Part shown: in pieces, positions 1 through 50,300 of the stretch | How the letters are laid out: the number at the start of each line of letters is the position of its first letter | Position numbering within the stretch: the first letter of the stretch is position 1 | NCBI GenBank assembly: GCA_026770705.1 | Contig: JANJGN010000009.1 | Span: 32,736,001 to 32,800,000 of the forward strand | Direction: 5' to 3' | Length of the DNA: 64,000 bases | Source of the DNA: Isurus oxyrinchus | Lineage: Eukaryota | Notes under the pieces: model-generated | The model's database searches: none | What the model was told of the DNA's origin: nothing | The model's input: only the letters and a program-made list of their open reading frames with translations | Position numbers and translations under genes: made by a program

Positions 1-1234
1 AAGGCTAATTATTTAAAATGGAAAATTGGGGGTTCGCTAGGGCTTGAGGTCCTTGTGCAATTTAGCTATATTCAGATGATTTCAAGATCACAGCTAAATA
101 AATACTTACCACCATCTGAATCAACATAACATGGTGTACCCTTGTGCTATGAGGCCAGTAAACACTGGCTACAAAGAGCCCTTGACAAAGCTCTCAGTGT
201 ACATAAAAATAAATAGATAATGCCTCAACTAAAATAATGGGCTGAGTATGCTAAGAATGAGTAAGATTTGTAATATCCCAAATCATAACCTCAGAGCAAC
301 ATCTTACCAGTGTTCATGCTGTCATTCTGGCTGGACATCTAAAGCCATGGAAGATTTTTTTTTCAGAATGCATCTATCATGTACGAAATCTAAACTGTCA
401 GAGAACTAGTGTCTGCAATCAGCAAGTGAGGGTAAAAGTCACTGACACCCTTTTCCCCAGGAGAGTACATTTTCTGGGACAGCATTTCTCTATGGGTTTG
501 ATCCATACAAGCAACATGCATAGGATTATTGATTCATTATTCCTATCTTCTATATTGCTATTTTATGATCTTAATGGGCTATAATAACCCAGTCATTTCA
601 ATGATCTCCAGGGCAAATGTTTTTTGATGGGCTGACAAAAGTGACCTCTAAGTGAACTTATCTGCAGTCACCCTTTCTGCACTTATCCCAGAGCAACAAT
701 AGCCATGTCCAGTTATGAAGGTCGATTGCTGTAGTTCTGGCTGTTAGGGTGATGATTTTGAACAAATGTACTTGAGTACGTGGTTAGTCAAAAATTATTT
801 ATTTTTAGTTGACAGTAACTAAGGAACTTTTGTGCCAGATTAAGTTACTGTGAAATTGTCTGCATTGCCAAACCACCTCAGCATCTAATAAACTGAAATC
901 TGAGTGATTTTCAAAAAAAATATATTTTGCATACGCTTCTTCAGGGAAGTAAAGCTGCAAGAAGATTTTTATTTCCATACAGCAAATTACAACATTTAAC
1001 TAACTCAATTTGGAAAGGACAGCTATCTTAGAGAGATGTATTTCCACACAGTTTGCTGGAAGTGTGATAATATTATTGTAATTTGTCTGAATGTATCAGA
1101 TAGAGGAAGGAGGAACTATTTCCAGTCAAAATAAGGGTGGAAATTCAATTTTGTTTTGTCCTGTCTTTTAGATATAAAATTGATGTTAGGGCAATAAATT
1201 TTGAGGCCCAGGCTCCCACTTGCAACTTCCCTCA

Positions 1235-1856: not shown

Positions 1857-2770
1857 TTAAAACAGAAAATGTTGGTAATGCTCAGTATCTATGGAGGAAG
1901 AAACAAAGTTAACAAGCTGGATTTTCTAGGGGGACCTCAGAAGCCCAGCATCGGGTCCATATAGGGGCACTGGCCCAATCCATTTTAATTTTCTGCCCCT
2001 GCACTCGCCATCCTATTGAGGATGGCAGGTGGGCTCCCAATAAGGATGGTGGGTGGGCTTCCAAGGCTGCAGGCCCAATCAGCAGCCACGTCAGGCCGGC
2101 AGCCCTGCCAGGAGATATGGGCTCTACTAAGGTAGGTGAGGACACTTCAACATGGAGGTGTCCTTGGACACCTGCAATAAATTATTCAAACAAAAGAGAC
2201 CTGAAGTTGGTAGTGCCATCAAGATGAGGGGAAACTCTTCCGAGGCCTGTTCATTAACGGAACTGTGGCCTTCATCGGACAGGCCTGTCAGCAGGCCATG
2301 AGTCATCCAGCTCTGATGGCACCTGGCCTGCTCCTGGGAGGCTGCCTCAATTGAGATGGTGGGGCCTCTCCAATGGTAGAAAAATACTGCCACCATTGTC
2401 AAATGGACGTAGGTGGGGCCTTAATTTCACTAATTGACTGCCTGCCTCTATGGACCAGCAGCCTACCTAATTCCCAGTCTATTCTGGGAAAATCCACAGA
2501 CGTGAGATATGCTGGGGAGCTGTCCTGATGCAGCTTCCCTCATTCTGTTCCCAGCCCCAACTGCCTCCAACCCTGTCTCCAGGTGGCCAGCAAAATCCAG
2601 CCAACATTTCAGATTGAAGACCTTTCATCAGTTCTGATGGAAGGTCGTTGAATGAAATGTGAACTTTGTTTTTTTTTCTCCGCAGATGCTGCCAGACCTG
2701 ATAAACATTTCCAGCATTTTCTGTTCTTGTTTTCAGCTTTGCAGCATCTGCAGGATTTTGCTTTTATTTA
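1857..2770. mobile_element. Degenerate Penelope-derived inverted (hairpin) terminal repeat, split by a MITE
   Basis: 1857-1913 (aaaacagaaaatgttgg...aaagttaac) resumes at 2603 (aacatttcagattgaagacctttcatcag), then the inverted arm ttctgatggaaggtc...gcagatgctgccagacctg...ttccagcattttctg. Same family as 4219-4353 and 8024-8239. Confidence 0.7.
1915..2602. mobile_element. Harbinger-type MITE
   Basis: TIR gctggatttt (1916-1925) / aaaatccagc (2592-2601); aac(a) repeated on both flanks; GC-rich non-coding interior. Confidence 0.7.
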
Positions 2771-4218: not shown

Positions 4219-4353
4219 ATAAAAGCAAAAAAACTGCGGATGCTGGAAATCCAAAACAAAAATAAAAATACCTGGAAAAACTCAGCAGGTCTGACAGCAT
4301 CTGCGGAGAGGAACACAGTTAACGTTTCAAGTCCATATGACTCTTCAACAGAA
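4219..4353 (-). mobile_element. Short Penelope-derived element with hammerhead motif
   Basis: Homologous to the 3' end of the Penelope at 30375-30500; 9-bp direct repeat ctaacaaaa at 4210-4218 and 4354-4362 (TSD). Confidence 0.8.
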
Positions 4354-4355
4354 CT
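4317..4355 (-). ncRNA. Minimal hammerhead ribozyme-like motif
   Basis: Minus strand reads agtt CTGTTGA a gagtc atatg gactt GAAAC gtt aact. Confidence 0.6.
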
Positions 4356-4369
4356 AACAAAACCCATTA

Positions 4370-8023: not shown

Positions 8024-8239
8024 TAAAAGCAAAAAAACTGCGGATGCTGGAAATCCAAAGCAAAAATAAAAATACCTGGAAAAACTAAGCAGGCCTGGCA
8101 GCAGCTGCAGAGAGGAACACAGTTAACGTTTCGAGTCCGTACCACTCTTAACATTTTTACTTAGTTCTGTTGAAGAGTCATACGGACTCGAAACGTTAAC
8201 TGTGTTCCTCTCTGCAGATGCTGCCAGACCTGCTGAGTT
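8024..8239. mobile_element. Penelope-derived inverted-repeat insertion
   Basis: 11-bp TSD cctcagatggg (8013-8023, 8240-8250); arms ~8080-8153 and 8168-8239 are reverse complements. Confidence 0.9.
8163..8201 (+). ncRNA. Minimal hammerhead ribozyme-like motif
   Basis: agtt CTGTTGA a GAGTC atacg GACTC GAAAC gtt aact: stem I agtt/aact, perfect 5-bp stem II. Confidence 0.65.
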
Positions 8240-16319: not shown

Positions 16320-16700
16320 AAGATCCTGAACAATATTGACAAGGTGGACATGGAAAGGGTGTTTTCTTGGGTGGGTGAGTCCAGAACTAGGAAGCACTGT
16401 TTTAAAATTAGGGGTTGCCCTTATAGAACAGAGAAGAGGAGATTTTTTTTCTCTCTCAGAGGCTTCTGCGACTGGAATTCTCTGCCTCCAAAGGTGGTGG
16501 AGGCGGGGTCATTGAATATTTTTAAGATGGAGGTAGATTCTTATTAAGCAAGGGAATCAAAAGTTATCGGGGGTAGATGGGAATGTGGAAGTCAAAACAC
16601 AGTCAGATCAGCCATGATCCTATTGAATGGCAGAGCCGGCTTGAGGGGCTGAAGGACCTACCTCTGCTCCGATTTCATTTGTTCGTATGTTTGTATGTTT
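16320..16700 (+). mobile_element. CR1 LINE 3' fragment
   Basis: KILNNIDKVDMERVFSWVGESRTRKH...WNSLP; tail ttgttcgtatgtttgtatgttt. Confidence 0.85.
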
Positions 16701-17607: not shown

Positions 17608-17864
17608 AAAACAAAAATAGAATTACCTGGAAAAACTCAGCAGGTCTGGCAGCATCGGCAGAGAAGAAAAGAGTTGACGTTTCGAGTCCTCATGACCCTT
17701 TGACAGAACTTGAGTTCGAGTCCAAGAAAGAGTTGAAATATAAGCTGGTTTAAGGTGTGTGGGGTGGGGGGAGAGAGAGAGAGAAGTGGAGGGGGTTGGT
17801 GTAGTTGTAGGGACAAACAAGCAGTGATAGAAGCAGATCATCAAAAGATGTCACAAACATTTAT
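17608..17864 (-). mobile_element. 5'-truncated Penelope copy (3' UTR/pLTR only)
   Basis: Nearly identical to 30380-30625; 10-bp TSD gtagatttat (17598-17607, 17865-17874). Confidence 0.9.
17672..17710 (-). ncRNA. Minimal hammerhead ribozyme-like motif with GUC triplet
   Basis: Minus strand: agtt CTGTCAA a gggtc atgag gactc GAAAC GTC aact. Confidence 0.6.
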
Positions 17865-18703: not shown

Positions 18704-18805
18704 CAGTTCTGATAGAAGGTCACAGAACTGAATTGTTAACTCTTTTTTCTCTCTTCACAGTTGCTGCCAGACCTACTGAGTATTTCCAGCATTTTTTGGT
18801 TTTAT
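18704..18805 (+). mobile_element. Older Penelope-derived short repeat with decayed hammerhead
   Basis: cagttctgatagaaggtc...gttaactct...gctgccagacctactgagtatttccagcattt. Confidence 0.65.
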
Positions 18806-18922
18806 ACTTGAGTTATTATAATGACAGATAAGTCAGGCTATGCATAGTTCATATCTTTAATTGTGATAAAGAGATTATTTGAAGTTTCAATCATTTATGC
18901 ATAAAGCAGAACATTCTGCAAG

Positions 18923-21037: not shown

Positions 21038-22272
21038 GGGTGGAATCGTCCCAGATTTGCACAAAGTGCAGTAGCAGGCAGGCAGAAAGTTGTTTGAGCA
21101 ACTGGCCGCAATGGTGGGTTTTTGCGCCATACCATCTCATTCCCTCTCATTAATTATGCAACGACAGGAAACACAGCATCTCAGTGGTGGGTGGCCTCCA
21201 ATTTGCCCGCCATGCCATTACCTCGCCTCTTCATCATGCAGGGCACCATATCTAAACTGCCGTTGCACACGCACTTCTCAATGCTTGCCGCCCAGAGTTG
21301 CTTTGGTGAAGGCATGGCCCTAAAGGCCAAGAAGAGTGCAGCCTTCCACTTCAGTGACGCATCCCTGTGACGCCTTCTGGAAGCTGTGGAGGCCCGCTGC
21401 GATGCCCTCTACCCTCAGGAGGCCCATCAGTCTCACAGCTCCTGCTTGAGAGGTGGTGGCAGAGGTGGTCATTGTCAATGCTGCACACAAGAGGTTGGTC
21501 ATCCAGTGCAGAAAGCAGATTAATGATCTTATCCGTGCTGCCAGATTAAGGCAACCATTTCATCACTCTAAACTCACACACTCACAAGGCCATCAGACAT
21601 TCACTGGCATCTCATTCACTGCCAGCTCAAGGGACATCACCACTCAGTCTCTCACACATGGCCTCATATCCCCGTCTGGCCTCATCTTCTCTGGAGACTG
21701 CCTCCTCAGCCCTTACCTCTTGAGGCCATGCCACAGATCAACATGTGTTCCCCCCCCTCCCCCACACACACATACACACACACCCCCTGGGATATCCCAC
21801 TTCTCCTGTACAGCCCGTGCCCTGCAGCCTCTTCCCCTGCTTGAGGCCACTTCTCCTCCTTCCCCAAACAAGCCCTAGCCCTGAAGCTGTTGCCTGCTAA
21901 GCCTGGCACTGATGACCGCGAGTGCTGCCCGAAGCAAGGTAGGCAAACAAACCTCGAAGTCCTGAGCGAAGAGCAGCTCGCCAGGTGCAGGTTGCTTATG
22001 TACAGTTGTGAAACATGTCAGCATTATCCCGGATGATCCAGCGTGGGAGGATGATTCCAGCGAGCAGGGCTTATAATGAGATGCTAAAGTATTGAAATAA
22101 GGTTTCCAACATGCAGTGACAGGAAAGGTGGACCGCCATTGACGGGTGGAGCAGGTGATCACAAACTGGTTTTTCAATGGCATGAAACCAATTTTGGCCT
22201 TCTCGGCATATTGTCCCCCCCACCCCCCAGCATCATGACACTCAATGCCAACAGGGCCGAATAATCCTGGCC
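21038..22272 (+). mobile_element. Non-autonomous Harbinger retaining a Myb/SANT exon
   Basis: TSD tta (21035-21037, 22273-22275); ends gggtggaatc / aatcctggcc; MALKAKKSAAFHFSDASL...VIQCRKQINDLIRAAR. Confidence 0.8.
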
Positions 22273-22828: not shown

Positions 22829-24735
22829 TGTGGTGATCATTACTTTAAGGCCACCCTTACTGAGTAAGGGTCATGTGGTCAGAACAGCCAATCAATATCG
22901 AGCGTGTGGAATCTCATAATGGGATGGAGTTCTCCTAGCCTGGGAAGTGTGTTGTATAGCCTTGCTTGAAGCAGGCAGCTAATCCAAGAGCTCTGTAAAT
23001 AAAGTTTGTTGTTTGACTAAAGAAGCCTCTTGGTAGTACATCTCTACATCTGGCAATGACTATGGGATAATCCTGGTGCTCCCTCTCACCATATAACTGT
23101 GAGTATCTCATTTTAAAAAAGCAAAGAAATAAAAAATATATACTCATCAGGATGCCTCTCTTCATGAAGATGGACCCATTTGACTTCCCCACAGCGGACT
23201 GGAGTCAATATATTGAGTTCCTTGGGTTTTATTTCCAGGCCAACAAAATAGGTGAGGAGGCAAAGCACAAAGCAATTCTCTTGAGCGTCTGTGGGAGTCA
23301 AATCTACTTCCTTATTCGCAGTCTCACAGCCCCAAGTGCCCCCAACTCCAAATCGTTCAGTGAGCTTGTGGATTTGGTGAAGGGCCGTTTTCAGCCCAAA
23401 CCATCAGTCATTATGCAAAGATTCAAATTTAATATGAGGATGAGTGCCCCAGGTGAATAGATTGTGATTTATATTGCTAAGTTGAAACAATTGTCAAAGA
23501 ATTGTGATTTGAAGGTGACCTTGAACGACATGCTATGCGATCGGTTAGTTTGTGGCGTGTGCAATGACGCCATTCAGCTTTGATTGTTTGCAGGAGTCAG
23601 TGTAACTTTTAAACAAGCAATGGAGATAGTGCAGGCCATAGCCTTAGCAAGAATACAACCATGGGCGTTGATCCTGACAGCATACAAGCATACTTTTATC
23701 GATAGACCTGGAAATCAAATTGCAAATGCTGATGCACTTAGTTGTTTGCACTTACAAGAAAACGATGAGGATGTCCCATTTCCACAAGAACTAGTATTAT
23801 TGTTAAATTTCTTAGATTCATAACCGGTATGTGCTAGACAGATCAGAGACTGGGCAAGTCGAGACCCAGTCTTATCCAAAGTAAGAGAGCAAGTGTAACT
23901 GATGAAACAAAACCATACTTTAACAGAGGACATGAAATAACCAGCCCGGATGGTATCTTATTGTGGGGAGCATGAGTGATTGTTCCTCCAAAAGAAAGAA
24001 AGCCATTGTTGATTGCACTACATAGTGCACATCCAAGAATTTCCCGAATGGAGACCATAGCACGCAGCTATCTATGGTGGCTTGGGATGGATGGTGAAAT
24101 AGAGAGCTTAGTGAAGAATTGTGTGCAGTGTCAGCAATTGCAAAAATTACCTTCAACAGCTCTGTTACACCCTTGGGAGTGGCCAGGAAGGCCATGGGTA
24201 TGATTACACATTAACTATGTGGGACCTTTCATGGGAACAATATTTCTGTTCATTGTTGATGCCCAATCAAAATGGATGGACACATATGAGGTGAAGTCAC
24301 CAACATCTTCTGCTACAATTAAGAAGCTACATCAAAGTTTTGCCATTAATGGATTACCAGAAATAGTCGTATCTGATAACAGCATGGTATTTATGAGTGC
24401 TGAGTTTCAACAGTTTATCAGTCTCAATGGTATCATTCATGTAAAGATTTCACCATACCACCCTTCCTCAAATCGACTGGCCAAAAGAGCGGTTCAAACA
24501 TTCAAGTCAGGAATATAAAAGTTAACTGGAGATTCCATAGCAACCAACTTAGCACACTTTCTTTTCCATTATAGGACCACCCCTCACACAACAACAAGGA
24601 CATCCACCCCAGTCCTGTAGAGGTGCAACCTGACCCCTTTGAATTGATGCCTTCTGCCCCAGGACTGGTACCAATGTTCCAAGAATCTGAAGGCCTCCTT
24701 CATGCGCCATGCCTCAAGCTACACATAGAGTGGAT
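22829..24735 (+). mobile_element. Gypsy LTR retrotransposon (K02A2.6-like), internally deleted, no 3' LTR
   Basis: 5' LTR TG...CA 22829-23048; decayed tRNA-Ser-type PBS tggcaatgactatgggat (23051-23068); gag MPLF..DPFD...WSQY; integrase LHSAHPRISRM...WWLGMD...CVQCQ, SDN, PYHPSSN. Confidence 0.9.
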
Positions 24736-27354: not shown

Positions 27355-27684
27355 TTCCCGATGGTGAGGGAGTCCAGAACCAGGGGGTCACAGTCTGAGG
27401 ATGAGGCGTAGACCATTTAGGACTGAGATGAGGAGAAATTTCTTCACCCAGAGAGAGGTGAGCCAGTGGAATTTGCTACCACAGAAAGTAGTTGAGGAGA
27501 AAACATTGTATGTTTTGAAGAAGGAGTTAGATATAGTTCTTGGGGTGAAAGGGATCAAAGGATATGGGGAGAAAGTGGGAGCAGGCTATTGATCATGGCT
27601 GATTGTCCAACTCATGATGAATGGTGGAGCAGGCTCTAAGGGCCGAATGGCCTACTCCTGCTCCTATTTTGTATGTTTCTATAT
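27355..27684 (+). mobile_element. CR1 3' fragment
   Basis: RPFRTEMRRNFFTQREVSQWNLLP; 8-bp TSD taaaaatg (27347-27354, 27685-27692). Confidence 0.88.
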
Positions 27685-27885
27685 TAAAAATGACCCTCTC
27701 ATTTTACTACTCCAGGTCTGACTCTAACAGGGTCTTCTTCTGAAGTTAGAGAGGATATGTTTTGCAAATACTGCAGGAGTCCCACTGTTTACACTTTTAG
27801 ATTATGAGAATTAGACTGGCTTTCTGAGTTTAAACAAAGAGCAACATAAGTTTATTAAAACTATTTCCAGAATTTAAAAACACTA

Positions 27886-28657: not shown

Positions 28658-30443
28658 ATTAGTGCAGATGGTAGAATAAGAGGATATACATAAAGATTTT
28701 TTATAGTTCACGAAGAAGATAAAACAAAGGAGTGTACAGTTAGCTGTTCACTGGCTGGTCTTGATGCAGTGATTCCATGCTGTGGCCGTTTTGTTCAGTT
28801 GCTTTTCTGGGTGTAGTTATATGGAACAGATCTTCATGTTTTATTCCCAAAGGATCTTGGTTTGCGGTAGATTTCTCTGCTCAAGATGGTTACATTGTAA
28901 ATCCAGGCACAATACTTTCAAGAGAGAGAGGGGGCAAGAGAGACAGAGAAGGCAAACATCTTCAGCCTGATTTCAGTACAGCATTCTGATCTCTGGTCTC
29001 TCTGGCTTAGTGAACAGTTCTTAAAGTGTCCTGCTGGCTGTATATTCCACAGGAATTTGATTAACCTATGTCTGCTGCCATCATTGATTTTAGAACAGGT
29101 AATTGCATTTTGATGTTTCATCTCAGAAACTTTTGAAAAGTTTTAAGATACTGTAAAGCCACAGGAGATAGGTTTTTCATGCTCTCCAAGGGGTTTGAGT
29201 GTCTGTTCTTTATCATCCCAGTTGAAGGAATGCAAGATTGTGTATTGTAGCTGGCTGGCAATCTTCCATTGTCTTAATAAGATTTCAGTTTATTTAAAAA
29301 AAAATATCCAGCCAGAAAAAGAACTAGAAATTGTATCTTTTTTTTAAAAAAAAAGCATGCTTATAATACTTACGCACCATGCGGAATGAAATGAGATTCA
29401 CTCTCACATCTTCCTTTTTACTCTGTTGGGTCTGTCCTGTTGAGGTTTGACTTGTTCCAATGTGGGTTTAAAACCCTACACAGAGCATCCGCAGTCACAT
29501 TAATTTTAACTGTAATGTAGCTAATTCTTAAGTGACATGGTAGGAAGAACAAACTCTAACAAAATAGTCTCGCATTTTTGGTTTTGAGTTTTTCCACAAA
29601 GGTTAAGGGATTGTGGTCTATACAGACTATGGTCTCTGTACAACCATTTTGAACATATATTTCAATGCATTTGAGAGCTAGTAATGGTCCTGAGGTTCCT
29701 TTCTCCACAAAGGAATAGCATTTCTGGTGTTTGTTCAATTTATTGGAGAAATACCTGATCGGTCTCCCTTTGCCTGATTCATCCCCCTGGAGTAAGACAG
29801 CCCCTACCCTGAGGTCACTAGCATTGAGAGCTACTTTAAATGTTTTGTTAAGTGTGGAGCTACAGGCACCAGGTTCATTTGCTAGAACTACTTTCAGCTT
29901 CTCAAAGGTTGTTTGCCATCTCTCTGTCCAAATTACTTTTGCTTTTTTCTGAAATAGGTCTGTTAGTGGGGCAGCAATAATACTGAAGTTAGGGACAAGC
30001 TTGCGGTAGACACCAGACATCCTTAACAATCTCATTATTTACCATTTTGTTGTGAGGATGGGAAATTCATTACTGCCTGTACCTTCACAGCTCTGGGCAG
30101 TGCTTGTCCTCAAACCACATGTCCTAGGTAGATCACCTGAGCCTTAGCACATTCACTATTTGTGAGGTTGACCACTAGGTCAGCTGACTGTAACCTTTTG
30201 ACAAGGGCATCCAGTTGTTCTAGGTGGCTTTCCCAGGTATCATGGTACATTAGTAGGTCATCCTGCTATGCTATACAGTTAGGCAGGCCTGTCACTACCT
30301 GGTTCATCAGCCTTTGGAAGGTGGCTGGGCCATTTCTGAGCTCAAACGGCATGACTCAACACTGGGATAATCCAAAACAAAAACAAAAACAGAATTACCT
30401 GGAAAAACTCAGCAGGTCTGGCAGCATCGCCGGAGAAGAAAAG

Positions 30444-30482
30444 AGTTGACATTTCGAGTCCTCATGACCCTTCGACAGAACT
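30444..30482 (-). ncRNA. Minimal hammerhead ribozyme-like motif in the Penelope 3' end
   Basis: Minus strand: agtt CTGTCGA a gggtc atgag gactc GAAAT GTC aact. Confidence 0.65.
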
Positions 30483-30857
30483 TGAGTTCGAGTCCAAGAA
30501 AGAGTTGAAATATAAGCTGGTTTAAGGTGTGTGTGTGGGGGGTGGAGATAGAGAGAGAGGTGGAGTGGGGGTGTGGTTGTAGGGACAAACAAGCAGTGAT
30601 AGAAGCAGATCATCAAAAGATGTCAACAACAATAATACAAAAGAACACATAGGTGTTAAAGTTAAAGTTGGTGATATTATCTAAACGAATGTGCTAATTA
30701 AGAATGGATGGTAGGGCATTCAAGGTATAGCTCTAGTGGGGGTGTTTTTTTTTTATTAAAAAATAATGGAAATAGGTGGGAAAAGGAAAATCTTTATAAT
30801 TTATTGGAAAAAAAAAGGAAGGGGGAAACAGAAAGGGGGTGGGATGGGGGAGGGAGC

Positions 30858-32088
30858 TCACGACCTAAAGTTGTTGAATTCAATATTCAGTCCGGAAGGC
30901 TGTAAAGTGCCTAGTCGGAAGATGAGGTGTTGTTCCTCCAGTTTGCGTTGGGCTTCACTGGAACAATGCAGCAAGCCAAGGACAGACATGTGGGCAAGAG
31001 AGCAGGGTGGAGTGTTAAAATGGCAAGCGACAGGGAGGTTTGGGTCATTCTTGCGGACAGACCGCAGGTGTTCTGCAAAGCGGTCGCCCAGTTTACGTTT
31101 GGTCTCTCCAATGTAGAGGAGACCACATTGGGAGCAACGAATGCAGTAGACTAAGTTGGGGGAAATGCAAGTGAAATGCTGCTTCACTTGAAAGGAGTGT
31201 TTGGGTCCTTGGACGGTGAGGAGAGAGGAAGTGAAGGGGCAGGTGTTGCATCTTTTGCGTGGGCATGGGGTGGTGCCATAGGAGGGGGTTGAGGAGTAGG
31301 GGGTGATGGAGGAGTGGACCAGGGTGTCCTGGAGGGAGCGATCCCTACGGAATGCCGACAGGGGGTGTGAAGGGAAGATGTGTTTGGTGGTGGCATCATG
31401 CTGGAGTTGGCGGAAATGGCGGAGGATGATCCTTTGAATGCGGAGGCTGGTGGGGTGATAAGTGAGGACAAGGGGGACCCTATCATGTTTCTGGGAGGGA
31501 GGAGAAAGCGTGAGGGCGGATGCGCGGGAGATGGGCTGGACACGGTTGAGGGCCCTGTCAACGACCGTGGGTGGAAAACCTCGGTTAAGGAAGAAGGAGG
31601 ACATGTCAGAGGAACTGTTTTTGAAGGTAGCATCATCGGAACAGATGCGACGGAGGTGAAGGAACTGAGAGAATGGGACGGAGTCCTTACAGGAAGCCGG
31701 GTGTGAGGAGCTGTAGTCGAGATAGCTGTGGGAGTCGGTGGGTTTGTAATGGATATTGGTGGACAGTCTATCACCAGAGATTGAGACAGAGAGTTCAAGG
31801 AAGGGAAGGGAAGTGTCAGAGATGGTCCACGTGAAAATGATGGAGGGGTGGAGATTGGAAGCAAAATTAATAAATTTTTCCAAGTCCCAACGAGAGCATG
31901 AAGCGGCACCAAAGTAATCATCGATGTACCGGAGAAAGAGTTGTGGAAGGGGCCGGAGTAGGACTGGAACAAGGAACGTTCCACATACCCCATAAAGAGA
32001 CAGGCATAGCTGGGGCCCATGCGGGTACCCATAGCCACACCTTTTATTTGGAGGAAGTGAGAGGAGTTGAAGGAGAAATTGTTCAGAT
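30858..32088 (-). pseudogene. Penelope RT and GIY-YIG endonuclease (one frameshift near 31950)
   Basis: KGVAMGTRMGPSYACLFM, FLRYIDD, SLPFLEL, NLVYCIRCSQCGLLYIGETKRKLGDRFAEH, GLN at the C-terminus. Confidence 0.92.
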
Positions 32089-32699
32089 GGATAATCCATC
32101 TGGAGTTATGAAGGCAGAGATCTCCTTTGTTCAAGAGGTATCGGGTGATACTCGCCAGTATCTCTTCAATAAATCTATCTTAGTGATGTATGCTACCTTA
32201 CCTACTCTGTCTATGCAATCTTTCAGGCGGGGGATCAGGTAGGGGTTGGCTTTGGTTACTGCACTAATCTTTCGGTAATCAATGCAGAGCCTTGTGGAGC
32301 CACCCGGCTTAGACAGAAGCACAACCGGGGAACTCCAGCTGCTGTTACTGGGCTTGATTAGTTCATGTTCCACCACATATTTGATCTCTTCCTGGATCTG
32401 TGTCAGCTTTTCTGGACCTAAAGAGTAGGAATTCTGTTTAATAGGAGGTGTCTCTCCTACATCCACGTCATGTAGCAATAAAGTGGTGCAGCCTGGCTCT
32501 TCGCTACAGATGCTGATAAATGTGGTCACTTCTTTGTTCTGCATTTAAGTGGGTGAGTATGGTATCTAATTTCTCTAAAATGTCTTTGTTTGCTAACCAG
32601 ACGGATGGTAGGGGGTTCAATTTGGGCTTCACCCAGGCCTCCCTGTAATTCATCCTCACTGTCCCTTTCACCCTCCTGCTCTTCTGCTACCTGACAGAC

Positions 32700-34691: not shown

Positions 34692-37600
34692 AAAAAGGCA
34701 AATAGGGTGGTCAATAGGACTTTAAATTAGAAAGTGGCGGGGGGGCGGGGGGAAGGGTAAAACTCCAAGACGTATGACTAATGGGAAACAAAGCAGCAGG
34801 TTAGCATGTGGGGGGGGTGGATTCAACTTCATGGAAAATTATGAAAAATCGGAAAAGAAAGGAGAGCCCAGGAGAGGTTATCAAAGTCCCCAGAACACAA
34901 AATAGGACAGAGCGTTTGGAAAGAGCTGGGAATCTAACTTCAAGCACATCAGATAAAGGGACGACAATGAGAAAGGGGACGGGAAATACAGAACTGAAGG
35001 TGTTGTCTCTGAATGCACGCAGTATACGAAATAAGGTAAATGAGCTTGTGGCGCAGATTGAAATTGGCAGGTATGATGTGGTGGGCATCACGGAGACATG
35101 GCTGCAAGGGGATCAGGACTAAATATCCAAGGATACACATTCTATCGAAAAAATAGGCAAGTTGGCAGAGGGGGTGGGGTTGCTTTGTCAGTAAGAAATT
35201 AAATTAAATCGATAGCAAGAAATGACGTAGGGTCAGATGATATAGAATCTGTGTGGGTAGAGTTGAGGAACCGCAAAGGTTAAAAAACAATAATGGGAGT
35301 TATGTACAGGCCTCCAAACAGTACTCAGGATGTGGGGCACAAGATACAGCAGGACATGGAAAAGGCATGTCAGAAAGGCAAGGTTACAGTGATCATGGGG
35401 GGTTTCAATATGCAGGTAGACTGGAAAAATCAGGTTGGTAGTGGATCCCAAGAAAAGGAATTTATGGAATGTCTACGAGATGGCTTTTTGGAGCAGCTTG
35501 TGGTGGAGCCCAATAGAGAAAGGCAATTCTAGATTTAGTGATGCGTAATGAGGCAGATTTGATAAGGGAGCTTAAGATGAAGGAACCCTTAGGAGGAAGT
35601 GACCATAATTTGATAAAATTCACCCTGCAATTTGAGAGGAAAAAGCTGGAATCAGATGTAACGGCATTACAGCTGAATAAAGGCAACTACAGAGGCATGA
35701 TGGAGGAGCTGGCCAGAATTGACTGGGAGATGAGCCTAGCAGGAAAGACAGTGGAACAGCAATGGCAGGACTTTCTGGGAGTAATTTGGGAGACACAGCA
35801 AAAATTCATCCCTAGGAAGAAGAAGCATACTAAAGGGAGGACGAGGCAACCATGGCTGACAAGGGAAGTCAGGAACAGCATAAAAGTTAAAGAGAAAGCA
35901 TACAATGCGGCGAACAGCAGTGGGAAACCAGGGGATTGGGAAGCCTACAAAGACCAACAGAGGACAACTAAAAAAGAAATAAGGAGGGAGAAGATTAAAT
36001 ATGAGGGTAAACTAGCCAGTAATATAAAAGAAGATTGCAAGAGTTTTTTCAGATATATAAAGGGTAAGAGAGAGGCAAAAGTGGACATTGGGCCTCTGGA
36101 AAATGACGCTGGAGAAGTAGTAGTGGGGAACAAAGAAATGGCAAAGGAACTGAATAGGTACTTTGCGTCAGTCTTCACGGTGGAAGACACGAGTAACATC
36201 CCCAAAGTTCAAGAGAGTCGGGGGCCAGAGGTGAGTATGGTGGCCATTACCAAGGAGAAGGTGCTAGGAAAACTGAAAGCTCTGAAGGTGGATAAATCAC
36301 CCGGACCAGATGGATTACACCCCAGAGTTCTGAAGTAGATAACTGAAGTGATAGTGGAGGCGTTAGTGGTGATCTTTTAGGAATCACTGGAGTCAGGGAG
36401 GATCCCAAAGGACTGGAAAATCGCTAATGTAATCCCCCTGTTTAAGAAAGGAGTGAGGCAAAAGAAGGGCAATTACAGGCCAATTAGCCTGACCTCAGTA
36501 ATTGGTAAGATTTTAGAGTCCATTATTAAGGATGAGATTTCAGAATACTTGGAAGTGCATGGTAAAATAGGGCAAAGTCAGCATGGTTTCATCAAGGGGA
36601 GGTCATGCCTGACAAATCTGTTAGAATTCTTTGAGGAGGTAATGAGTAGTTTAGACAAAGGAGAGCCAATGGATGTTATCTACCTGGACTTCCAGAAGGC
36701 CTTTGACAAGGTGCCACACAGGAGGTTGCTCAGTAAGATAAGAGCCCATGGTGTTAGAGGCAAGGTATTAGCATGGATAGAAGATTGGCTGTCTGGCAGG
36801 AGGCAGAGAGTGGGGATAAGGGGGTCCTTCTCAGGATGGTGGCCGGTGACTAGTGGAGTTCTGCAGGGGTCAGTGTTGGGACCACAACTTTTCACTTTAT
36901 ACATTAATGATCTAGGTGAAGGAACTGAGGGCATCCTGGCTAAGTTTGCAGATGATACAAAGATAGGTGGAGGGACAAGTAGTATTGAGGAAGTGGGGAG
37001 GCTGCAGAAGGATTTGGACAGGTTAGGAGAATGGGCAAAGAAGTGGCAGATGGAATACAATGTGGGGAATGTGAGGTCATGAACTTTGGTAGGAAGAATA
37101 GAGGCATAGACTATTTTCTAAATGGGGAGAGAATTCAGAAATCTGGAGTACAAAGGGACTTGGGAGTCCTAGTCCAGGATTCTCTTAAGGTTAACTTGCA
37201 GGTTGAGTCGGTGGTTAGGAAGGCAAATGCAATGTTGGCATTTATTTCAAGAGGACTAGAATATAAATTCAGGGATGTGCTGCTGAGGCTTTATAAGGCT
37301 CTGGTCAGACCACATTTAGAATATTGTGAGCAATTTTGGGCCCCATACCTCAGGAAGGATGTTCTGGTCCTGGGGAGGGTCCAAAGGAGGTTCACGAGAA
37401 CGATCCCAGGAATGGAAGGCTTAACATATGAGGAAAGTTTGAGGACTCTGGGTCTATACTCGAAGGAGTTTAGAAGGATGAGGGGGGATTTGATTGAAAC
37501 TTACAGAATACTGAAAGGCCAGGATAGAGTGGACGTGGGGAAGTTGTTTCCATTAGTAGGAGAGACTAGGACCCAAGGGCACAGCCTCAGAGTAAAGGGA

Positions 37601-37867
37601 AGACCTTTTAGAACAGCGATGAGGAGAAACTTCTTTAGCCAGAGAGTGGTGAATCTATGGAATTCATTGCCACAGAAGGCTGTGGAGGCCAGGTCATTGA
37701 GTGTATTTAAGACCGAGATAGATAGTTTCTTGATTGGTAAGAGGATCAAAGGTTACGGGCGAAGGAGGGAGAATGGGGTTGAGAATCTTATCAGCCATGA
37801 TTGAATGGCGGAAGAGACTCGATGGGCCGAATGGCCTAATTTCTGCCCCTATGTCTTATGGTCTTAT
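34692..37867 (+). mobile_element. CR1 LINE with nearly complete ORF2 (APE endonuclease and RT), young
   Basis: LNARSIRNK...VGITETWL, YRPP, SDHN, KSPGPDG, NYRPISLTS, YLDFQKAFDKV, QGSVLGP, FADD, WNSLP; few stops or frameshifts; tail tatgtcttatggtcttat. Confidence 0.95.
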
Positions 37868-40879: not shown

Positions 40880-43800
40880 TCTCTGCTACATAACAAATGT
40901 TTTCACTTTTGCTTCTGACTAGTAATCAGTATGATATTGAAACCTTGATTCAGTCAGGTTTCTGCTCTTGCCAAAATACCAAACAGCTCTTATCAAAATC
41001 AGAAGTGGCACCCTATGTGAATGTGACAGAGATAAATTGTTCTTCATCTTGCCTCCTGTCCTGCCTGCAGCTTTTCACACTGTCCTCCACCAATGCCTAG
41101 CCACTTTCATCCAACTGGTGACACTGTACTCACCTGGTTTCATTCTTTTATACTTGGTCATAGCCAGAGCATCACCTGCAGTGGCTTCGCTTTCTGCTCC
41201 CTCACCATTAACTCTGGTGACCCCAAGGATCTATCCTTGACATCCTCCTATTTGCCATCTACATGCTGCCTGTCCCACAATGACTTCTACTGAAAACACA
41301 GACTGGAATTATGCCGTCCTATTGGCACTGGGCGTAATGGCGGGTGGGGAGGGAACAATATGGCGAGAAGACCAAAATTGGTTTCAAGCGAGTGTGAAAG
41401 CACAGCGGGATCGTTTGATGGTGTCCACCAAGCAGAAGGCCGATCCTTCTGGAGGCCGGAGTGAACCTGCTCTGCTAATAGGTTGCAATGGTCCGACCGG
41501 AATCATCCTCCCACATCAGATTTTCCGTTACGTCGGTGGGAAGGCACGCTGGCCCAGGACACCCTCCGGGTAAGTGTGACGTGCCAAAGTCAGAGCCTAC
41601 CATTTGGGCCTAGCTCAGATTGCGGACAACCGTGGAGCAGAAGTGCTGGAACCCTACAGCTACCAGACCCTGGACATGGCTCAGCCACAAAGCAATTCAC
41701 GGAAGCTGGGAGGTCTCCGTTGATACCTCGGGTCTGCTTTGGAACATCACAGTCTCAGCCAAGGGCTGCTACAGATTATCAGCGGGGCGCGGGAGTTGGT
41801 GGAGAGGAAAGTCCAGCTGTGAGTGGGAGAGGAAGGTGTACTGCGAATGGGAGCGTGGAGGGTGGGGTGAGGTTGGGAGGGGGAAGATGAATGTGTTGGG
41901 GGGAATGAGGTTGAGAGGGGGAGGAGGGATAATGGCAGAGAATGCAGCAAGTGGGTAGGTAGGTGTAAGGAGGGAGGAAGGTTGAAAGGAAGGAGTCCTG
42001 GAGGGGGGAAGGAGTCCCTGAGTCCAGAGGGAGGAGGGAGCAGGGATGAGGAGGGAGCAAGGGTGGAGAAGGGAGTAAGGGGGGGTAGGATGTCCATCTG
42101 AACGTGCAAGGGAGGGGTCAATGGAGTCAATGACTGCCACCTGGGGAGTGAATTGAGGTTGGACGTTGTAGGAAGGAACGGTGAGTATGAGAAGGGGCAA
42201 AGTGAGCTGGAAGGGTGGGAGGGTGAGCGTACGGTGGTAGTGGTAGAAGAGATGGTGAGGGTGGTTGGTGGGGACTCGGACTCCAGACATGGACCCTGAG
42301 GGTGGGAAGGTGGAGGTCGGGGAGGTCAATGTGGATGGGGGTGGGATTCTCAGGAAGGTAGAGAACGTGAACATTGACCTAGAAATCTTGGAAAGAACAG
42401 GGTTCAGGTCACTAGGTGGTGCTGGGGAGGTGGAAGGTGATGCCAGGGGAGTTGTCAGTGATGGGGGAAAGGCCATGAATGACTTGGGGAAGGGAAGGGA
42501 CCAGAGGAACTGAGCAGAAACCTGACTATGACCATGTTTTTCAAATCAAAAGCGAGCGGAGCCTCATGTTAGATGGGCACCGGTGCTGCATGGGACTGCT
42601 ATCAGTGAGTGGGTGGAGATGCAGGTCAGCTCAGATGGACAACTGAAAGGTAACCTCAGCAGGGAGCATTGAAAATGCTCAGGATATTGAGATGATTGTG
42701 ATAGCGGAATGGTCCACATGCACGGTGGAGCTTTCTTGGCTGTCCTCCTGTGGGCCAGCTGCTCCCTCTGAGGTGACAGACTACAAGGTTGAGAGGGTTC
42801 ACAGGCAAAGGGGACTCACAGAGAGAGAGAGGACAGCTTCTGACATTCCTGAGTGGATGACCCTGAGGTATCCAGCTGCTGCTCCTCCTCCCTTCAGGTG
42901 ATGGAGGGCTCTGGCCTGACTCCTTGAGGGCAAGGAGCACCTGGGAGGATGTTGAGGTGCCCCATTTCCCTCTCGCATTGCCACTGTAGGAACTGACCCA
43001 TGGCTATAGCGATGCAGTGCAGCTCTGTGTGCATCTCCGCATTTTGCTGGACCAGGGTCTCCATAGCGAACTGCCATCCTTCCCACAGAGACCTCCATAT
43101 ATCCACTTCATCAGAGAGCAGGCAGGTGCACTCCTGTGACTCACATGCCACTCTGTTGAGAGCTTCCAACAGCTCTGCATGATTTCCCCCCACCGTGTCC
43201 ATACACTGACCTCCAGATTGTGAACTCTAGAGCCTGCTCTGGATCTGGGTCCCATCGAGCTGTGTTTCTGTGCTGGTGGAGAGTGTGGGTAAGTGCTGCG
43301 ATGGGTCTATCGGGCTGTTTATTTCCAGATCTTCAATGGAGGAGGAACCTTTTGGCTGGAGGTGAGGACGTGGATGGAGCTGAGGGACTGGCTGCCTGAG
43401 GGTGTCAGTTGCTTGGCAGAGCTCCCTGTGAATGAAAGTAGAGATAATTAGTGCATGCATGGTAGCAGAGTCAAAAGCAGGAGACAGAGCACTCACAGTT
43501 ATATTGAGAGAGGATGGTGGGGTGCAGGATCATCATGTTGATGTCTATTGTCGACCTCACATCATCGCAGGCACAGTCCATGTCCCACCAGTCAGTGCAA
43601 TGATACACTCCTCAAAGTGAGTGAGGAGCCTAATGTGTACCACTCCACCCCCTGGTCTGGGATCATCCCCTGTTGTTGTGAGCCAGCTTCCCCCTGCATG
43701 AAAACAGATGGAGGAAGAATGAGCAAGATGCATGGCGCTGTGTGGAATGTGTGGTGAGTGGAGACATGAGGACGTGAGGATATGAGCCTGATGGAGATGT

Positions 43801-45032
43801 GAGGGTGTGTGTGAGAGTTACTGGTGTTGTCCCTTGAGGTGTGAGTTGCCTGTGAATGTGTGATGGGTTTGTGAGTGTGTGAGTTCAGAGTGATGAGATG
43901 GCTGACTTACCCTGGCAGAACAGTTGCGAGCACTCATCCTCTTTCTGCACAGGCTGGCTAATGTCCTTTGTGCTCTGGTGGCGCTAACCGTCACTGCCAC
44001 CACCTCCCAGGCCAGATTGATAACTCTGGTGGACCTCCTGCAGCCAGAGTGGGGCTAGAGGACCTCATGATTGCATGCAGCAGTCGCTCCAGGGAGGCAT
44101 CACTAAATTTGATGGCTGCCATCTTCTTTGCTTTTGGGGCCACCAGTCGCCTGGAGTAGTCCTGGTCTGAAGACATGAAGTAGACATGTGCTCTGGTGCA
44201 CTTTTAATAAGGTGTTCAGAGAGAGAAAGCGCTGAGCTCATGGCGGGCACATCTGAACCCACCCACCAGCGGTGCATCATGTTTCCTATAAATGCATTAG
44301 TAATGAGGCGGGACATGCTGGGAATGGGACGATATGGTGCTAAAAGTTGCCATTGCAGCCGGTGGGTAAAATGTCTGTTTTCCTGCCCACTACCGCACTT
44401 TGTGCAAATCTGGGATAATCCTGCCCACAGTGTCAATTTCCACATTTAGGCTGAGGATTCCCGGCTCAATCTCACCACCACCTCTCTCAATACCTCTGGC
44501 ATCATGTTCTCAATGAGCAAAGGTTCTGTCCTACTAAATAATGGGGAGTTCCAAACTATTGTGCAAAACTCTGTTACCTTTGGCCTATTTCACACCAAGT
44601 CCCTCTCAGCCATTACCCCATTGTCCTTTCTGACCAACATTGGTCCCTGGTTAAGCAGCTCCTCAATTTTAAAATTCTTATTTTTGTCTTCAGATCCCTC
44701 CATGCTTCCAATCGCACCCTTCCCCATCTTTGTAATCTTCTCCAACACCACCCCCACTCCCCCAACCTTCCGAGATATCTGCACTTCTCCAATTCTGACC
44801 TCTTGATGATCTCTGAATTTAGTCATTTCACTACTGGCAGCCATGCCTTCACCTGCCAAAGCCCTGCGTGCTGGAATTCCTGCCTGAAAACTATTTAAGG
44901 CACACCTCAAAACGTTCCTCTTTGATGAAGCTCCTGGTCATTGTCAAATTTTGTTTGACAAACCATCCTGTGATGGGCCCTGGCTATTTTGTGCTATTTT
45001 AAAGGTGTTATATAAATACAAGTGTTGTTGTG
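40880..45032 (+). mobile_element. L2 LINE 3' half, split by a Harbinger
   Basis: Decayed RT (LFAIYMLP...KH|SVNFHI*AED joins across the insertion); 3' end ...tatataaatacaagtgttgttg. Confidence 0.8.
41301..44426 (-). mobile_element. Non-autonomous Harbinger with Myb/SANT gene remnant
   Basis: TSD aca (41298-41300, 44427-44429); ends gactggaatt / aatcctgccc; APKAKKMAAIKFSDASLERLLHA; right end is the reverse complement of the left end of 21038-22272. Confidence 0.82.
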
Positions 45033-47097: not shown

Positions 47098-47202
47098 CTG
47101 TTGTGATGAAAGGTCATCGACCTGATACAGTAAATCTGTTTCTCTCTCCACAAGTGCTGCCAGACCTGCCGAGAATTCCCAGCAATTTCCGTTCTTATTT
47201 CA
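47098..47202 (+). mobile_element. Older Penelope-derived short repeat with hammerhead remnant
   Basis: gtt gTGATGA a AGGTC atc GACCT gatac...gtgctgccagacctgccgag. Confidence 0.7.
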
Positions 47203-47374: not shown

Positions 47375-50300
47375 CGTAGTGATACATTTGTAAAAAATGG
47401 GCTGAGTGATAATTATGGTTTTATTTAGTGTGTAATTTAAGAAAAATACTTGTTAGGAAAGATCACATAACCTGAAGTAACCAATAGGAGAGTAGCATGG
47501 GCTACCTCAGAATCAGTGTATAGATAAAGTAGAAGTGAAAAGCACATGTGTAGTTGCTTCTGAGTATATTGTAAATAAACTTAATATTTCCACTTCAGAA
47601 ATGTTTGCCATTCAACTCTATTGCTAGTAGTACAACTCGGCCACCCTACAACAAACTGGTGAAGAGGATAAAACAGCATTGAACAGAAGAAATCAAGTTA
47701 GAAAGAAATCAGCACTGTACCTCACCCAGTGATTGTAAGTAACAAGCTCGTTTAGAATTGAAATAGTTACTCTCTCTCAACATGCCACATTTTGGGAGAA
47801 TTGATCCTTTTGAACCAGCCACACATGATTGGTCTCACTAAATAGAACACCTCATTTTTTTTTCAAGCGAACAAGATTAAAGGGGAAGAGAAGAGGCGAG
47901 TACTTGTGGGAGCTAAACCTATGGTTTGATTCAAAATTTGATGGCACCCAGTGCCCCAGATTCAAAGAATTTTGATGAATTGGTAGACCTCATGAAGGTC
48001 ACTTTCAACCCATGCCCTCAGTCATAATGCAGAGGCTCAGGTTTAATTTGTGAAATAGACCTCCAGGTGAGATAATTGCATGCTATGTGATAAATTTGAA
48101 GCAGCTAATGGAACATTGAGAGTTTAGTATGACTCTGAAAAATATGCTGAGATATAATTTAGTGTGTGGTGTGAAAGAGGACACTGTTCAGAAAAAAATA
48201 TTGTCCAAAGTGAATCTGGATTTCAAGAAGGCGCTAGAGATAGCGCTGACCATGGAAAGCATTATAAAAGATGCATTAGCAATACACGGTGCCCAAAATT
48301 GCGTCTCCCTCCACATCGGGCAGGAATCCTCAAGCGAAAGTGGTGCGAGAAAGCGAGACTCTGTCAAAAAGTGAGAAACAGTCCCCACTAGCTGAAGAAT
48401 AAAGAAAAATAATTGAGCAGTGAGGTTGAAGAATAATTTTAATAGAGGTGGAAACGATCAGTCTTTTAGGGATTGGCAGTTTAAAAAAATCAAGTGCTAC
48501 CATTGTCACAGAAATGGACATATAATGAAGCAGTGCAAGGAGAGAATCAAGCAGGCTTGTAAATAAAAGAAGAAGCCCAATGACCCAATGAAATCTACAA
48601 TGTTGAAGAGCCTGAAACAAAACATTATGACATTACTCATTGTTTTATCTGAAAGTTGGAAAGACAGAACAAATACTTGTCACAGTGAAAGTGAATGACA
48701 AACCTGTTAAAATGAAAATAGACACAGGAGCTTCCACTACAGTAATTGGGGAACATACCTTCAGATATCCGAATAATGGTGAACATCAATTAAGTTTAGA
48801 ACAAACAGCTGACAAGCTAAAATCATATGTGGGTAAAGATATTCAAGTAAGAGGCATAAGCAAGGTAATTGTCCATTATAGAAGCCGATCGGCACAGCTA
48901 CCCATGATGGTGGTAGCAGGTGAAGGGCCAAGCCTCCTGAGGAAAAATTGGTTAAAAGACATTAGTTCTGTTGAAGAGTCATATGGACTCGAAACGTTAA
49001 CTGTGTACCTCTCCGCAGATGCTGTCAGACATGCTGAGTTTTTCCAGGTATTTTTGTTTTTGTTAAAAGAATTTAAGTTAGAATGGCCTGAAATTTTCCA
49101 GTTGAGAGCAAGTCAGCTACCAGAGCTATTTAGAAAGCACACCACCGTCTTTAGGGACAAAGTGGAGAAAGTCCAGGACCTGCAGGCCAAGATTTATTTC
49201 GATCCGGAAGCAACCCCTCACTTCATGAATGTTAGACTGGTGCCATACGCCCTGCAATAAAAAGTTGACACTGAGCTGAACAGACTAGAGAAACTGGGCA
49301 TTATACAAGCTGTTCAGTTCTCAGAATGGGCAGCACCCAAAATCCCCAGTTTTTGGGGACTACAAACTGGCAGTTAACAAAGTAGCTAAGCTGGACAGGC
49401 ACCCCATTCCAAAAATCGAAGACCTGTACGCCAAGCTGGCAGGAGGGACAATGTACACAAAGCTTGACATGAATCATAATTATCAACAACTAGAATTTGA
49501 TAATGCCTCCAGGGGATTTGCCACAATTAATACACACCAAGGGTTGTACCAATATACATGATTGCCTTTTGGTGTCTCCTCAGCCTGTGCCATCTTTCAG
49601 AAATCAATGGAAGGCTTACTGCAAGGACTGCCCCAGATTGTAGCCTCTTTAGAGGATGTATTGGTGACAGGATTCACTGAAAAAGAGCATTTGGCAAACT
49701 TAGAAGAAGTCTTAAAACATTTCTTGTAAGCTGGGGTGCATCTAAAAAAAGAAAAGTGCACATTCTGAGCGAGGGAGGTAATCTATTTGGGTCACCGGGT
49801 AGATTCACAGAGCCTCCACCTGGTTGAGGAGAAAGTGAGAGCCATAAGAGAGGCACCTGTGTCAAAGAACGCCTCAGAGCTCAAATCATTCCTAGGAATG
49901 AGGAGCTAATATGGGCGGTTCTTACCCAATTTGTCTACATTGCTGGCCCCCCCTGCATACTCTACTCAAAAAGAACCAACGTTGGTCTTGGGAGGCACCC
50001 CAGAAAGAAGCTTTCATAAAGGTGAAACAATTGTTGCACTCATCCAATCTATTAATGCATTATGACCAGACAAAATCAATGATGCTGACATGTGACACAG
50101 CTCCCTGCGGAGTGGGAGCAGCGCTCTCTCATGGGATGGACGACGGCACAGAAGGCCAATAGGTTTGGTATCAAGGACGTTTACCGCAGCGGAAAAAGGA
50201 TATTCACAGATCAATAAAGAAAGACTGTCATCATCCTTGGTGTCAAGAAGTTTCACCAGTACATACATGGCTGCCATTTTACAATCGATTCAGACCACAA

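What the first reader, a model, noticed from the sequence alone, without database searches (positions are those of the whole stretch)
30375..32088. Penelope element with a minimal hammerhead ribozyme at its 3' end; the motif recurs in at least eight insertions
Seen: downstream of the RT/GIY-YIG ORF the sense strand reads agtt-CTGTCGA-a-gggtc-atgag-gactc-GAAAT-GTC-aact, i.e. stem I, core, stem II, GAAA, NUH, stem I. Homologous motifs occur at 2603-2664 (both strands), 4317-4355, 8121-8201 (both strands), 17672-17710, 18705-18738, 47100-47128 and 48964-49002. Known: Penelope-like elements carry minimal type I hammerheads with a vestigial palindromic stem III, thought to cleave as dimers. Inference: this genome hosts a very abundant ribozyme-bearing retroelement system that ORF-based annotation would miss.
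Basis: partly seen in the sequence, partly recalled or inferred. Interest (0 to 1): 0.7.

Follow-up and report, generated by a model that had tools for sequence, protein, structure and literature searches.

The report
Shark Penelope hammerhead with altered core
A broken copy of a very abundant jumping gene in a shark-like genome ends in a small hammerhead RNA motif of a known kind, but its whole recent lineage carries a change in a normally fixed core letter, so it likely cuts slowly or only with help, and cutting is untested.

Summary
The element (30374-32086, minus strand) is a 5'-truncated Neptune-type Penelope-like retrotransposon inserted into a decayed Gypsy element, with a minimal type I hammerhead motif near its 3' end: a known feature of this class. 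This is lineage-fixed, not decay: 87,879 U6 against 3,196 A6 matches genome-wide, including tandem units with intact 865-926 aa frames. After A6U arose, paired and core positions stayed conserved (1 change in 31, against 62 in 304 in the 3' UTR). No insertion ends at the predicted cut (0 of 151 3' ends); short copies begin at the motif's 5' edge. An upstream near-copy of the motif's 3' half was built up stepwise. Of the eight window sites, all are family members, but most are decayed and none has an intact canonical hammerhead. Best reading: a weak, probably protein-assisted ribozyme whose RNA is copied uncut or re-joined. Cleavage is untested. The scan already noted this core variant and the fixed start on other DNA of this genome.

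The parts
30374..32086 (-). 5'-truncated Penelope-like (Neptune-type) retrotransposon copy, 1.71 kb of a 3.34 kb unit
   Evidence: 93.5% identical to a unit of the tandem array L001
30858..32086 (-). ORF remnant: C-terminal part of RT (YIDD at 31928-31917), CX4CX2C linker (31265-31239), GIY-YIG endonuclease (about 31154-31050); one frameshift near the 5' end
   Evidence: full-length relative has RVT_1 and GIY-YIG
30483..30857 (-). 3' UTR, upstream part of the pseudo-LTR
30486..30495 (-). Upstream near-copy (9 of 10) of the motif's stem II 3' strand plus GAAA; predicted competing helix
30444..30482 (-). Minimal type I hammerhead motif: stem I 30482-30479/30447-30444, core 30478-30472 with U6 at 30475, extra A, stem II 30470-30466/30460-30456, GAAA 30455-30452, C15.2U at 30451, predicted cut after 30448
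30374..30443 (-). Segment downstream of the predicted cut; this copy ends in the first of two end clusters (+50..+80)
30365..30374 (.). Target-site duplication, 10 bp, 3' side; its first six letters also match the element's own continuation (microhomology)
32089..32098 (.). Target-site duplication, 10 bp, 5' side
17609..17864 (-). Short copy of the same subfamily; motif 17672-17710 with U6 and G8A
4255..4357 (-). Short copy, older U6 subfamily; motif 4317-4355; begins at the motif's 5' edge
8061..8239 (.). Head-to-head insertion, older U6 subfamily: intact motif 8163-8201 (+), truncated inverted arm 8149-8061 (-)
48962..49064 (+). Short copy, older U6 subfamily; motif 48964-49002; begins at the motif's 5' edge
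2603..2732 (.). Old A6 family, decayed: motif 2630-2665 (+) and a short inverted arm 2631-2603 (-)
18705..18807 (+). Old A6 family, decayed motif 18705-18741
47099..47200 (+). Old A6 family, decayed motif 47099-47135

Best explanation
This is a dead, 5'-truncated copy of a Neptune-type Penelope-like retrotransposon whose pseudo-LTR carries the class's minimal hammerhead motif with a lineage-fixed A6U core change, which likely makes it a slow ribozyme that would cut only as a dimer or with the element's protein. Shown: element anatomy, tandem units with intact frames, U6 fixed along the lineage, conservation of paired and core positions after A6U, insertions that end 50-115 nt beyond the predicted cut in two clusters, and read-through of the upstream motif. 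Inferred: transcription starts at the motif's 5' edge; reverse transcription starts internally at two sites downstream of the motif; the copied RNA therefore holds the motif uncut or cut and re-joined; rare cleavage plus ligation (or a strand jump between the two pLTRs) gives more-than-unit arrays; weak cutting is tolerated or favoured because a cut at the 3' motif would separate the priming sites from the body of the element.
For: Intact 918 aa RT + GIY-YIG frame in 3.34 kb tandem units that carry U6. U6 87,879, A6 3,196, C6/G6 2,192 under one descriptor. Tree on ORF end plus UTR without the motif: A6 families basal, U6 needs 2 changes against 15.5 in shuffles. Old-U6 versus youngest: 1 of 31 constrained motif positions differ (a wobble-keeping change), 3 of 6 free positions, 62 of 304 UTR sites, 5 of 24 four-fold sites; Fisher p 0.015 against UTR, 0.0096 against free positions. 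Stem II compensation between families, 89.5% cells paired. 3' ends: 74 at +50..80 and 66 at +81..115 of 151, none at or before +4, like the two internal start sites of the anole element. 58 of 72 long arms read through the upstream cut site. Adjacent array units differ at 0-3 of 1,381 sites, and 4 of 14 pairs share variants seen at most once elsewhere. In the anole element the hammerhead is protein-assisted and not needed for insertion in vitro; natural A6C hammerheads keep low activity.
Against: No cleavage was or could be tested. Single changes in the CUGA turn gave low activity in a deep scan, and A6C cut the rate by several orders in Mg2+; A6U on an already weak minimal form may be fully dead. 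Constrained positions are not significantly better kept than the downstream tail (1 of 31 against 9 of 69, p 0.17). No pile-up of 5' ends at the cut. In context, stem II of the youngest families is predicted to form with probability under 0.2, and the hammerhead dimer is less stable than the cofold minimum (-10.1 against -18.2 kcal/mol). Stem I shows almost no covariation. Identical array units can also come from homogeneous source arrays, gene conversion or assembly polishing.
Confidence: 0.55

Rival explanations
1. The U6 motif is catalytically dead and is kept as a folded handle for the element's protein and as part of an internal promoter; arrays arise by strand jumps between pLTRs or from multimeric transcripts.
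For: No end at the cut. 5' ends of short copies pile up at the motif's 5' edge (29 of 82 at risk within 15 nt), as for a start site; Drosophila Penelope has an internal promoter in its pLTR. Ribozyme mutants insert normally in vitro; Naiad elements multiply without canonical hammerheads. A C6 side branch also amplified.
Against: The changes that did occur after A6U follow hammerhead rules (N7, loop II, H17 U to C, a wobble in stem II), while G8, G12, C3 and the palindrome were kept, two of them in mutable CpG.
Confidence: 0.27
2. The motif is an ordinary working dimer hammerhead: it cuts multimeric transcripts efficiently into monomers that circularise and are copied by rolling circle, A6U being compensated.
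For: Head-to-tail arrays with near-identical units and shared private variants fit one circular template; read-through of the junction fits re-ligation; model proposed in print.
Against: No compensating change is visible; published position-6 changes lower activity; canonical minimal hammerheads are already slow; poor predicted folding in context.
Confidence: 0.13
3. The motif lost all function with A6U and simply rides along in a successful lineage.
For: Overall motif divergence after A6U is similar to the tail's (4 of 38 against 9 of 69); numbers are small.
Against: Changes are confined to free positions (p 0.0096) and rarer than in the UTR (p 0.015).
Confidence: 0.05

Closest known systems
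Minimal type I hammerheads (min-HHR) in pLTRs of metazoan Penelope-like elements (Cervera and De la Pena 2014, PMC4209133; parts 1-2 of 4 read, 2 of 3 supplement files searched)
   Same: Place in the pLTR, short stem I, extra nucleotide after A9, G10.1-C11.1, palindromic 15.2-16.2 with no loop III, many dispersed truncated copies, opposite-strand pairs, about 3 kb tandem spacing.
   Different: U at core position 6 across the dominant lineage (the text read names only a U3-A8 variant); 5 bp stem II; at least 88,000 copies against 2,000-9,000 reported; no cartilaginous fish in the text read.
Neptune clade of endonuclease-bearing Penelope-like elements (Craig et al. 2021, PMC8557442; passages)
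   Same: Single RT + C-terminal GIY-YIG frame, CX2-5CXXC linker, partial tandems, inverted 5'-truncated arm, 30-40 bp optional tail.
   Different: Clade placement rests on the linker motif, not on a tree with named references; the linker is shared with Nematis.
Poseidon element of Anolis (PAc; Frangieh et al. 2024, PMC11167929; parts 1-2 of 4 read)
   Same: Two internal end sites downstream of the hammerhead; no ends at the cut; ATT at the target.
   Different: In PAc the frame starts inside the hammerhead; here the start codon lies about 140 nt after the cut. PAc is Poseidon clade; its core variant status at position 6 was not checked.
Natural A6C hammerhead of phage Bcep176 (PMC3088659 passages; PMC7151607 parts 1-2 of 4)
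   Same: Natural substitution at core position 6.
   Different: C rather than U, single bacterial-virus example, tested and active at low rate with a preference for Mn2+; here untested and fixed in tens of thousands of copies.
Type-GCS non-circularly permuted hammerhead (Eckert et al. 2023, PMC10085705; passages)
   Same: The upstream near-copy puts a G block before the C and S blocks in the youngest subfamily.
   Different: Only a 2 bp stem III and a 2 nt link would be available, and the native G block is still present; weak resemblance.

Membership tests
Endonuclease-bearing Penelope-like element | One ORF with RT and C-terminal GIY-YIG | tested here: met
   918 aa frame with RVT_1 (E 7e-8) and GIY-YIG (E 9e-4, below the curated cut-off), DKG and YIDD motifs; window copy is a remnant
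Endonuclease-bearing Penelope-like element | Tandem or partial-tandem units forming pLTRs, inverted truncated arms, optional 30-40 bp tail | tested here: met
Endonuclease-bearing Penelope-like element | RT groups with PLE/telomerase RTs in a tree | not tested
   no named reference set was on hand; 840 relatives found are mostly unnamed
Neptune clade | CX2-5CXXC linker between RT and endonuclease | tested here: met
   residues 784-792; shared with Nematis
PLE minimal hammerhead | Located in the pLTR | tested here: met
   one motif per 3.34 kb unit, between stop and next start
PLE minimal hammerhead | Stems I and II with compensation | tested here: met
   stem II 92.8% paired, two pairs change type between families; stem I 85.5% paired with almost no covariation; few independent events
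PLE minimal hammerhead | Extra nucleotide after A9, G10.1-C11.1, palindromic 15.2-16.2 | tested here: met
   met for the family; the finding's own copy has C15.2U
Hammerhead ribozyme (canonical core) | Core C3 U4 G5 A6 N7 G8 A9 | tested here: not met
   U6 in this copy and in 87,879 of 93,267 descriptor matches; older families have A6
Hammerhead ribozyme (canonical core) | G12 A13 A14 A15.1, U16.1 H17 | tested here: met
Hammerhead ribozyme (canonical core) | Site-specific self-cleavage after H17 | not testable with these tools
   needs a bench assay; genomic ends show no trace of the cut; only contigs, no raw reads, were served
Rfam hammerhead families | Match to a curated model | tested here: not met
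   no hammerhead family at E<=1 in the window
Non-LTR retrozyme | Short non-coding tandem units with one hammerhead each | tested here: not met
   the tandem unit is 3.34 kb and coding
Type-GCS permuted hammerhead | G block upstream pairing with C and S blocks through stems II and III | tested here: inconclusive
   upstream stem II predicted at -4.7 against native -5.3 kcal/mol; stem III only 2 bp; pseudoknots not modelled

The most novel reading that the evidence does not exclude
The lineage evolved a position-dependent ribozyme switch: after A6U slowed the core, the 3' UTR was rebuilt step by step into a copy of the motif's own stem II strand and GAAA, which masks the hammerhead whenever upstream RNA is present (the 3' pLTR, where a cut would remove the priming sites) and leaves it free in RNAs that start at the motif's 5' edge; in the youngest subfamily the same strand could even complete a type-GCS core in cis.
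Probability: 0.12. Interest if true: 0.72.

Novelty: new variant of a known kind. Interest (0 to 1): 0.42.

Why it matters
Why Penelope-like elements keep hammerheads is an open question. This genome holds a dated series of subfamilies in which one core letter changes (A6 to U6, with a C6 side branch) and the element afterwards reaches about 10^5 copies while the rest of the fold is kept. That gives matched natural A6/U6/C6 forms for one assay that asks whether cleavage matters for mobility. CUGANGA-based searches would miss nearly all of these copies. The element and its hammerhead as such are ordinary.

Tried and rejected
Rfam scan: no hammerhead hit; the mir-3158 hit at 8092-8230 is the fold-back insertion. 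A6U as decay of this copy: rejected by genome counts. Pile-up of 5' ends at the cut as a trace of cleavage: not found; 3 of 72 long arms end at +10..+13, and 3 of 104 tail-anchored copies at +1..+23. Specific masking by the upstream near-copy: shuffled upstream sequence lowers stem II probability just as much (38-92 of 100 shuffles as low in family A), so the low value is mainly due to the G-U in stem II and pyrimidine-rich flanks. Upstream GAAAUC as a second cut site or a type III hammerhead: pairing too poor by inspection, and the 5' pile-up also occurs in families without it. Spliceosomal intron between motif and start codon: donor- and acceptor-like sites exist, but no such joint is listed in three RNA-guessed runs; contigs only, so no verdict. 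RNA ends and expression: no raw reads served. Print searches for the variant: hammerhead + A6U, + CUGUUGA, + CUGUCGA, and shark + Penelope + hammerhead listed no paper on it by title or abstract. Lunse et al. 2017, about 150,000 PLE-linked variants by my recall, is not held and may contain U6 forms; one supplement file of PMC4209133 and the supplements of the 2026 preprint were not seen. PMC11014351 gave nothing on position 6.

Full report
What is at the site. The stretch 32086-30374 on the minus strand is one insertion. It interrupts a decayed Ty3/Gypsy pol region (RVT_1 at 32131-32544, RT_RNaseH at 29556-30038) and is flanked by a 10 bp duplication at 32098-32089 and 30374-30365. It encodes the C-terminal part of an RT, a CX4CX2C linker and a GIY-YIG domain, with one frameshift. 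Full units in the genome are 3.34 kb, lie head to tail and have open frames of 865-926 codons; one 918 aa frame matches RVT_1 and GIY-YIG. The nearest named relative is a bamboo shark protein at 69% identity, so the host is probably a cartilaginous fish. The linker points to the Neptune clade as described in PMC8557442 (passages); I built no tree with named references.

The motif. At 30482-30444 the sense strand has a 4 bp stem I, the core, an extra A, a 5 bp stem II, GAAA, a two-letter vestige of stem III and a GUC triplet. This is the minimal hammerhead of PMC4209133 (parts 1-2 of 4 read). They fall into three subfamilies, and most are decayed; the 'both strands' cases are inverted truncated arms. 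In an alignment of 48 copies from evenly spaced genome stretches (15 of 63 left out as truncated, duplicated or unparsed) plus 8 window copies, 89.5% of cells pair against 87.0% in shuffles and at most 47% when partners are slid; two stem II pairs change type between families, and stem I hardly covaries. These are few independent events. Rfam finds no hammerhead.

Abundance. One 39-mer occurs 52,044 times exactly, reversed control 0. A 36-mer of the downstream segment occurs 106,809 times. A 35-mer at the frame's start occurs 327 times, so nearly all copies are short ends. 81 profile hits in 800 kb (three of the 80 stretches flank the window) extrapolate to roughly half a million arms of all ages.

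The core is not canonical. Position 6 is U. One descriptor gives 87,879 matches with U6, 3,196 with A6 and 2,192 with C or G; most of the listed C6 matches share one sequence, which suggests a side branch that amplified. Older families have A6. A tree of 63 copies built on the frame's end and the 3' UTR without the motif (172 copies qualified; all but 12 of the copies from targeted young loci were dropped) gives a ladder from A6 families to old U6 copies to the youngest; the label needs 2 changes against 15.5 in shuffles, and one origin is not ruled out. Arrays with intact frames carry U6. Among 56 parsed copies of the even sample, 21 of 35 U6 copies but 1 of 19 A6 copies pass a strict structure test. 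In print, changes in the CUGA turn give low activity (PMC9901934, passages), and natural A6C forms cut slowly in Mg2+ and better in Mn2+ (PMC3088659 passages, PMC7151607 parts 1-2). I found no paper on a U6 form, but could not read Lunse et al. 2017.

The fold stayed under constraint after A6U. Between 19 old U6 copies and a youngest unit, 1 of 31 paired or core positions differs, and that change keeps a wobble pair; 3 of 6 resolved free positions, 62 of 304 UTR sites, 5 of 24 four-fold sites and 9 of 69 tail sites differ. Fisher p is 0.0096 against free positions, 0.015 against the UTR and 0.17 against the tail. So constraint is likely, but whether it is for catalysis or for binding is not settled. 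Against catalysis: with flanks, stem II of the young families is predicted at probability under 0.2, against over 0.9 in the older A6 and U6 subfamily, and the double hammerhead is 8 kcal/mol above the cofold minimum in a model that ignores tertiary contacts.

Where insertions end. Of 151 terminal 3' ends, 74 lie at +50..+80 and 66 at +81..+115 from the predicted cut, none at or before +4 (57 further motifs run on into the next unit, 2 were not placed). This matches the two internal start sites and tail of the anole element, in which ribozyme mutants insert normally and cleavage needs the protein (PMC11167929, parts 1-2). Of 72 long arms that span a unit junction, 58 read through the upstream cut site and 14 end at +10..+119, without a peak (three insertions contribute two arms). 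Among 104 tail-anchored copies, 29 of 82 at risk end within -45..-31, the 5' edge of stem I, against 5 in the next 25 nt (p 1e-8), while 0 of 56 long arms stop there (p 4e-8). A start site at the motif's edge is the simplest reading; Drosophila Penelope has an internal promoter (PMC2377424, passages), and the letters there resemble an initiator (consensus recalled, not tested). Stalling of RT at the helix base is an alternative.

Arrays. In 14 adjacent unit pairs the 3' 1,381 nt differ at 0-3 sites, against a median of 3 between loci (44% of between-locus pairs also differ at 2 or fewer). All 9 differences are rare elsewhere and 7 are at CpG; 4 pairs share variants seen at most once elsewhere. 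This fits one unit read twice, on a re-joined circle or by a jump between pLTRs, but homogeneous source arrays, conversion or assembly polishing could give the same.

An upstream near-copy. The 30 nt before the motif diverged faster than the rest of the UTR (10 of 27). On a tree that leaves this stretch out, the best match to the motif's stem II 3' strand plus GAAA rises from 3 of 10 through 4-5, 6 and 9 to 10 of 10; the helix it could form with the 5' strand of stem II goes from none to -1.7, -4.0 and -4.7 kcal/mol, against -5.3 for the native hairpin. An exact 10-letter match is unlikely by chance, so selection or repeated local template switching is implied. However, shuffled upstream sequence masks stem II equally well in the model, so a specific switch is not shown. 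A type-GCS arrangement (PMC10085705, passages) is formally possible in the youngest subfamily but would rest on 2 bp.

Expression. RNA-guessed runs from two organisms hold the stretch, with no change listed at position 6, but only as contigs; ends, strand and splicing cannot be read.

Verdict. The element and its minimal hammerhead are a known kind; hammerhead-bearing repeats and Penelope elements are also reported across vertebrates including one cartilaginous fish (bioRxiv 10.64898/2026.07.22.740005, abstract and first part of Results). The lineage-wide U6 core with continued constraint is a variant I did not find in print, and fails the canonical core test, so I do not file it as a working hammerhead. 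It most likely works as a slow, assisted one (0.55) or as a non-cutting scaffold (0.27). Earlier notes of this scan reached the U6 core and the fixed start on other DNA of this genome; they are not independent support. Interest 0.42.

Noticed in passing
window 29556-30364 and 32089-32544 (-): Decayed Ty3/Gypsy pol region (RT and RNase H pieces) that the Penelope copy interrupts; further Gypsy-like pieces at 23071-24195 and 48631-51318.
   Followed up: partly
L001:5642-5731; window 30399 region (-): Splice-donor-like site 49 nt after the cut and acceptor-like site just before the start codon, about 87 nt apart; Drosophila Penelope has a 75 nt intron near its start. The donor is absent from the oldest families. 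No joint seen in contigs.
   Followed up: partly
listing; L281:1217: A side branch with C at core position 6 (about two thirds of the first 100 of 2,192 C/G matches share one sequence), so position 6 changed more than once in amplifying lineages.
   Followed up: partly
L251-L280: Older A6 family (3,746 matches) has a fixed C-A mismatch in stem I and A at position 7.
   Followed up: partly
L004-L020, window 8061-8239: Many insertions are head-to-head pairs whose two arms end at different 3' clusters.
   Followed up: partly
L037, L044, L049, L086: Short multi-part insertions that run 45-130 nt past the start-codon anchor and are repeated 2-3 times, suggesting a rarer downstream priming site and template jumps.
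   Followed up: no
window 35517-37804 (+), 52435-53363 (+), 1234-1657, 16319-16692, 27386-27686, 55941-57092: CR1/L2-like LINE pieces (labels from recall of the translations, not tested).
   Followed up: no
window 7525-7706: Two identical 91 bp tandem copies inside a GC-rich stretch with overlapping open frames (7075-9427), possibly another transposon.
   Followed up: no
window 41747-44049 (-) and 21038-21614 (+): Another diverged repeat pair with Penelope- or LINE-like strand composition.
   Followed up: no
window 5267-5311 (+): Tail-only fragment of the Penelope family, without the motif.
   Followed up: no
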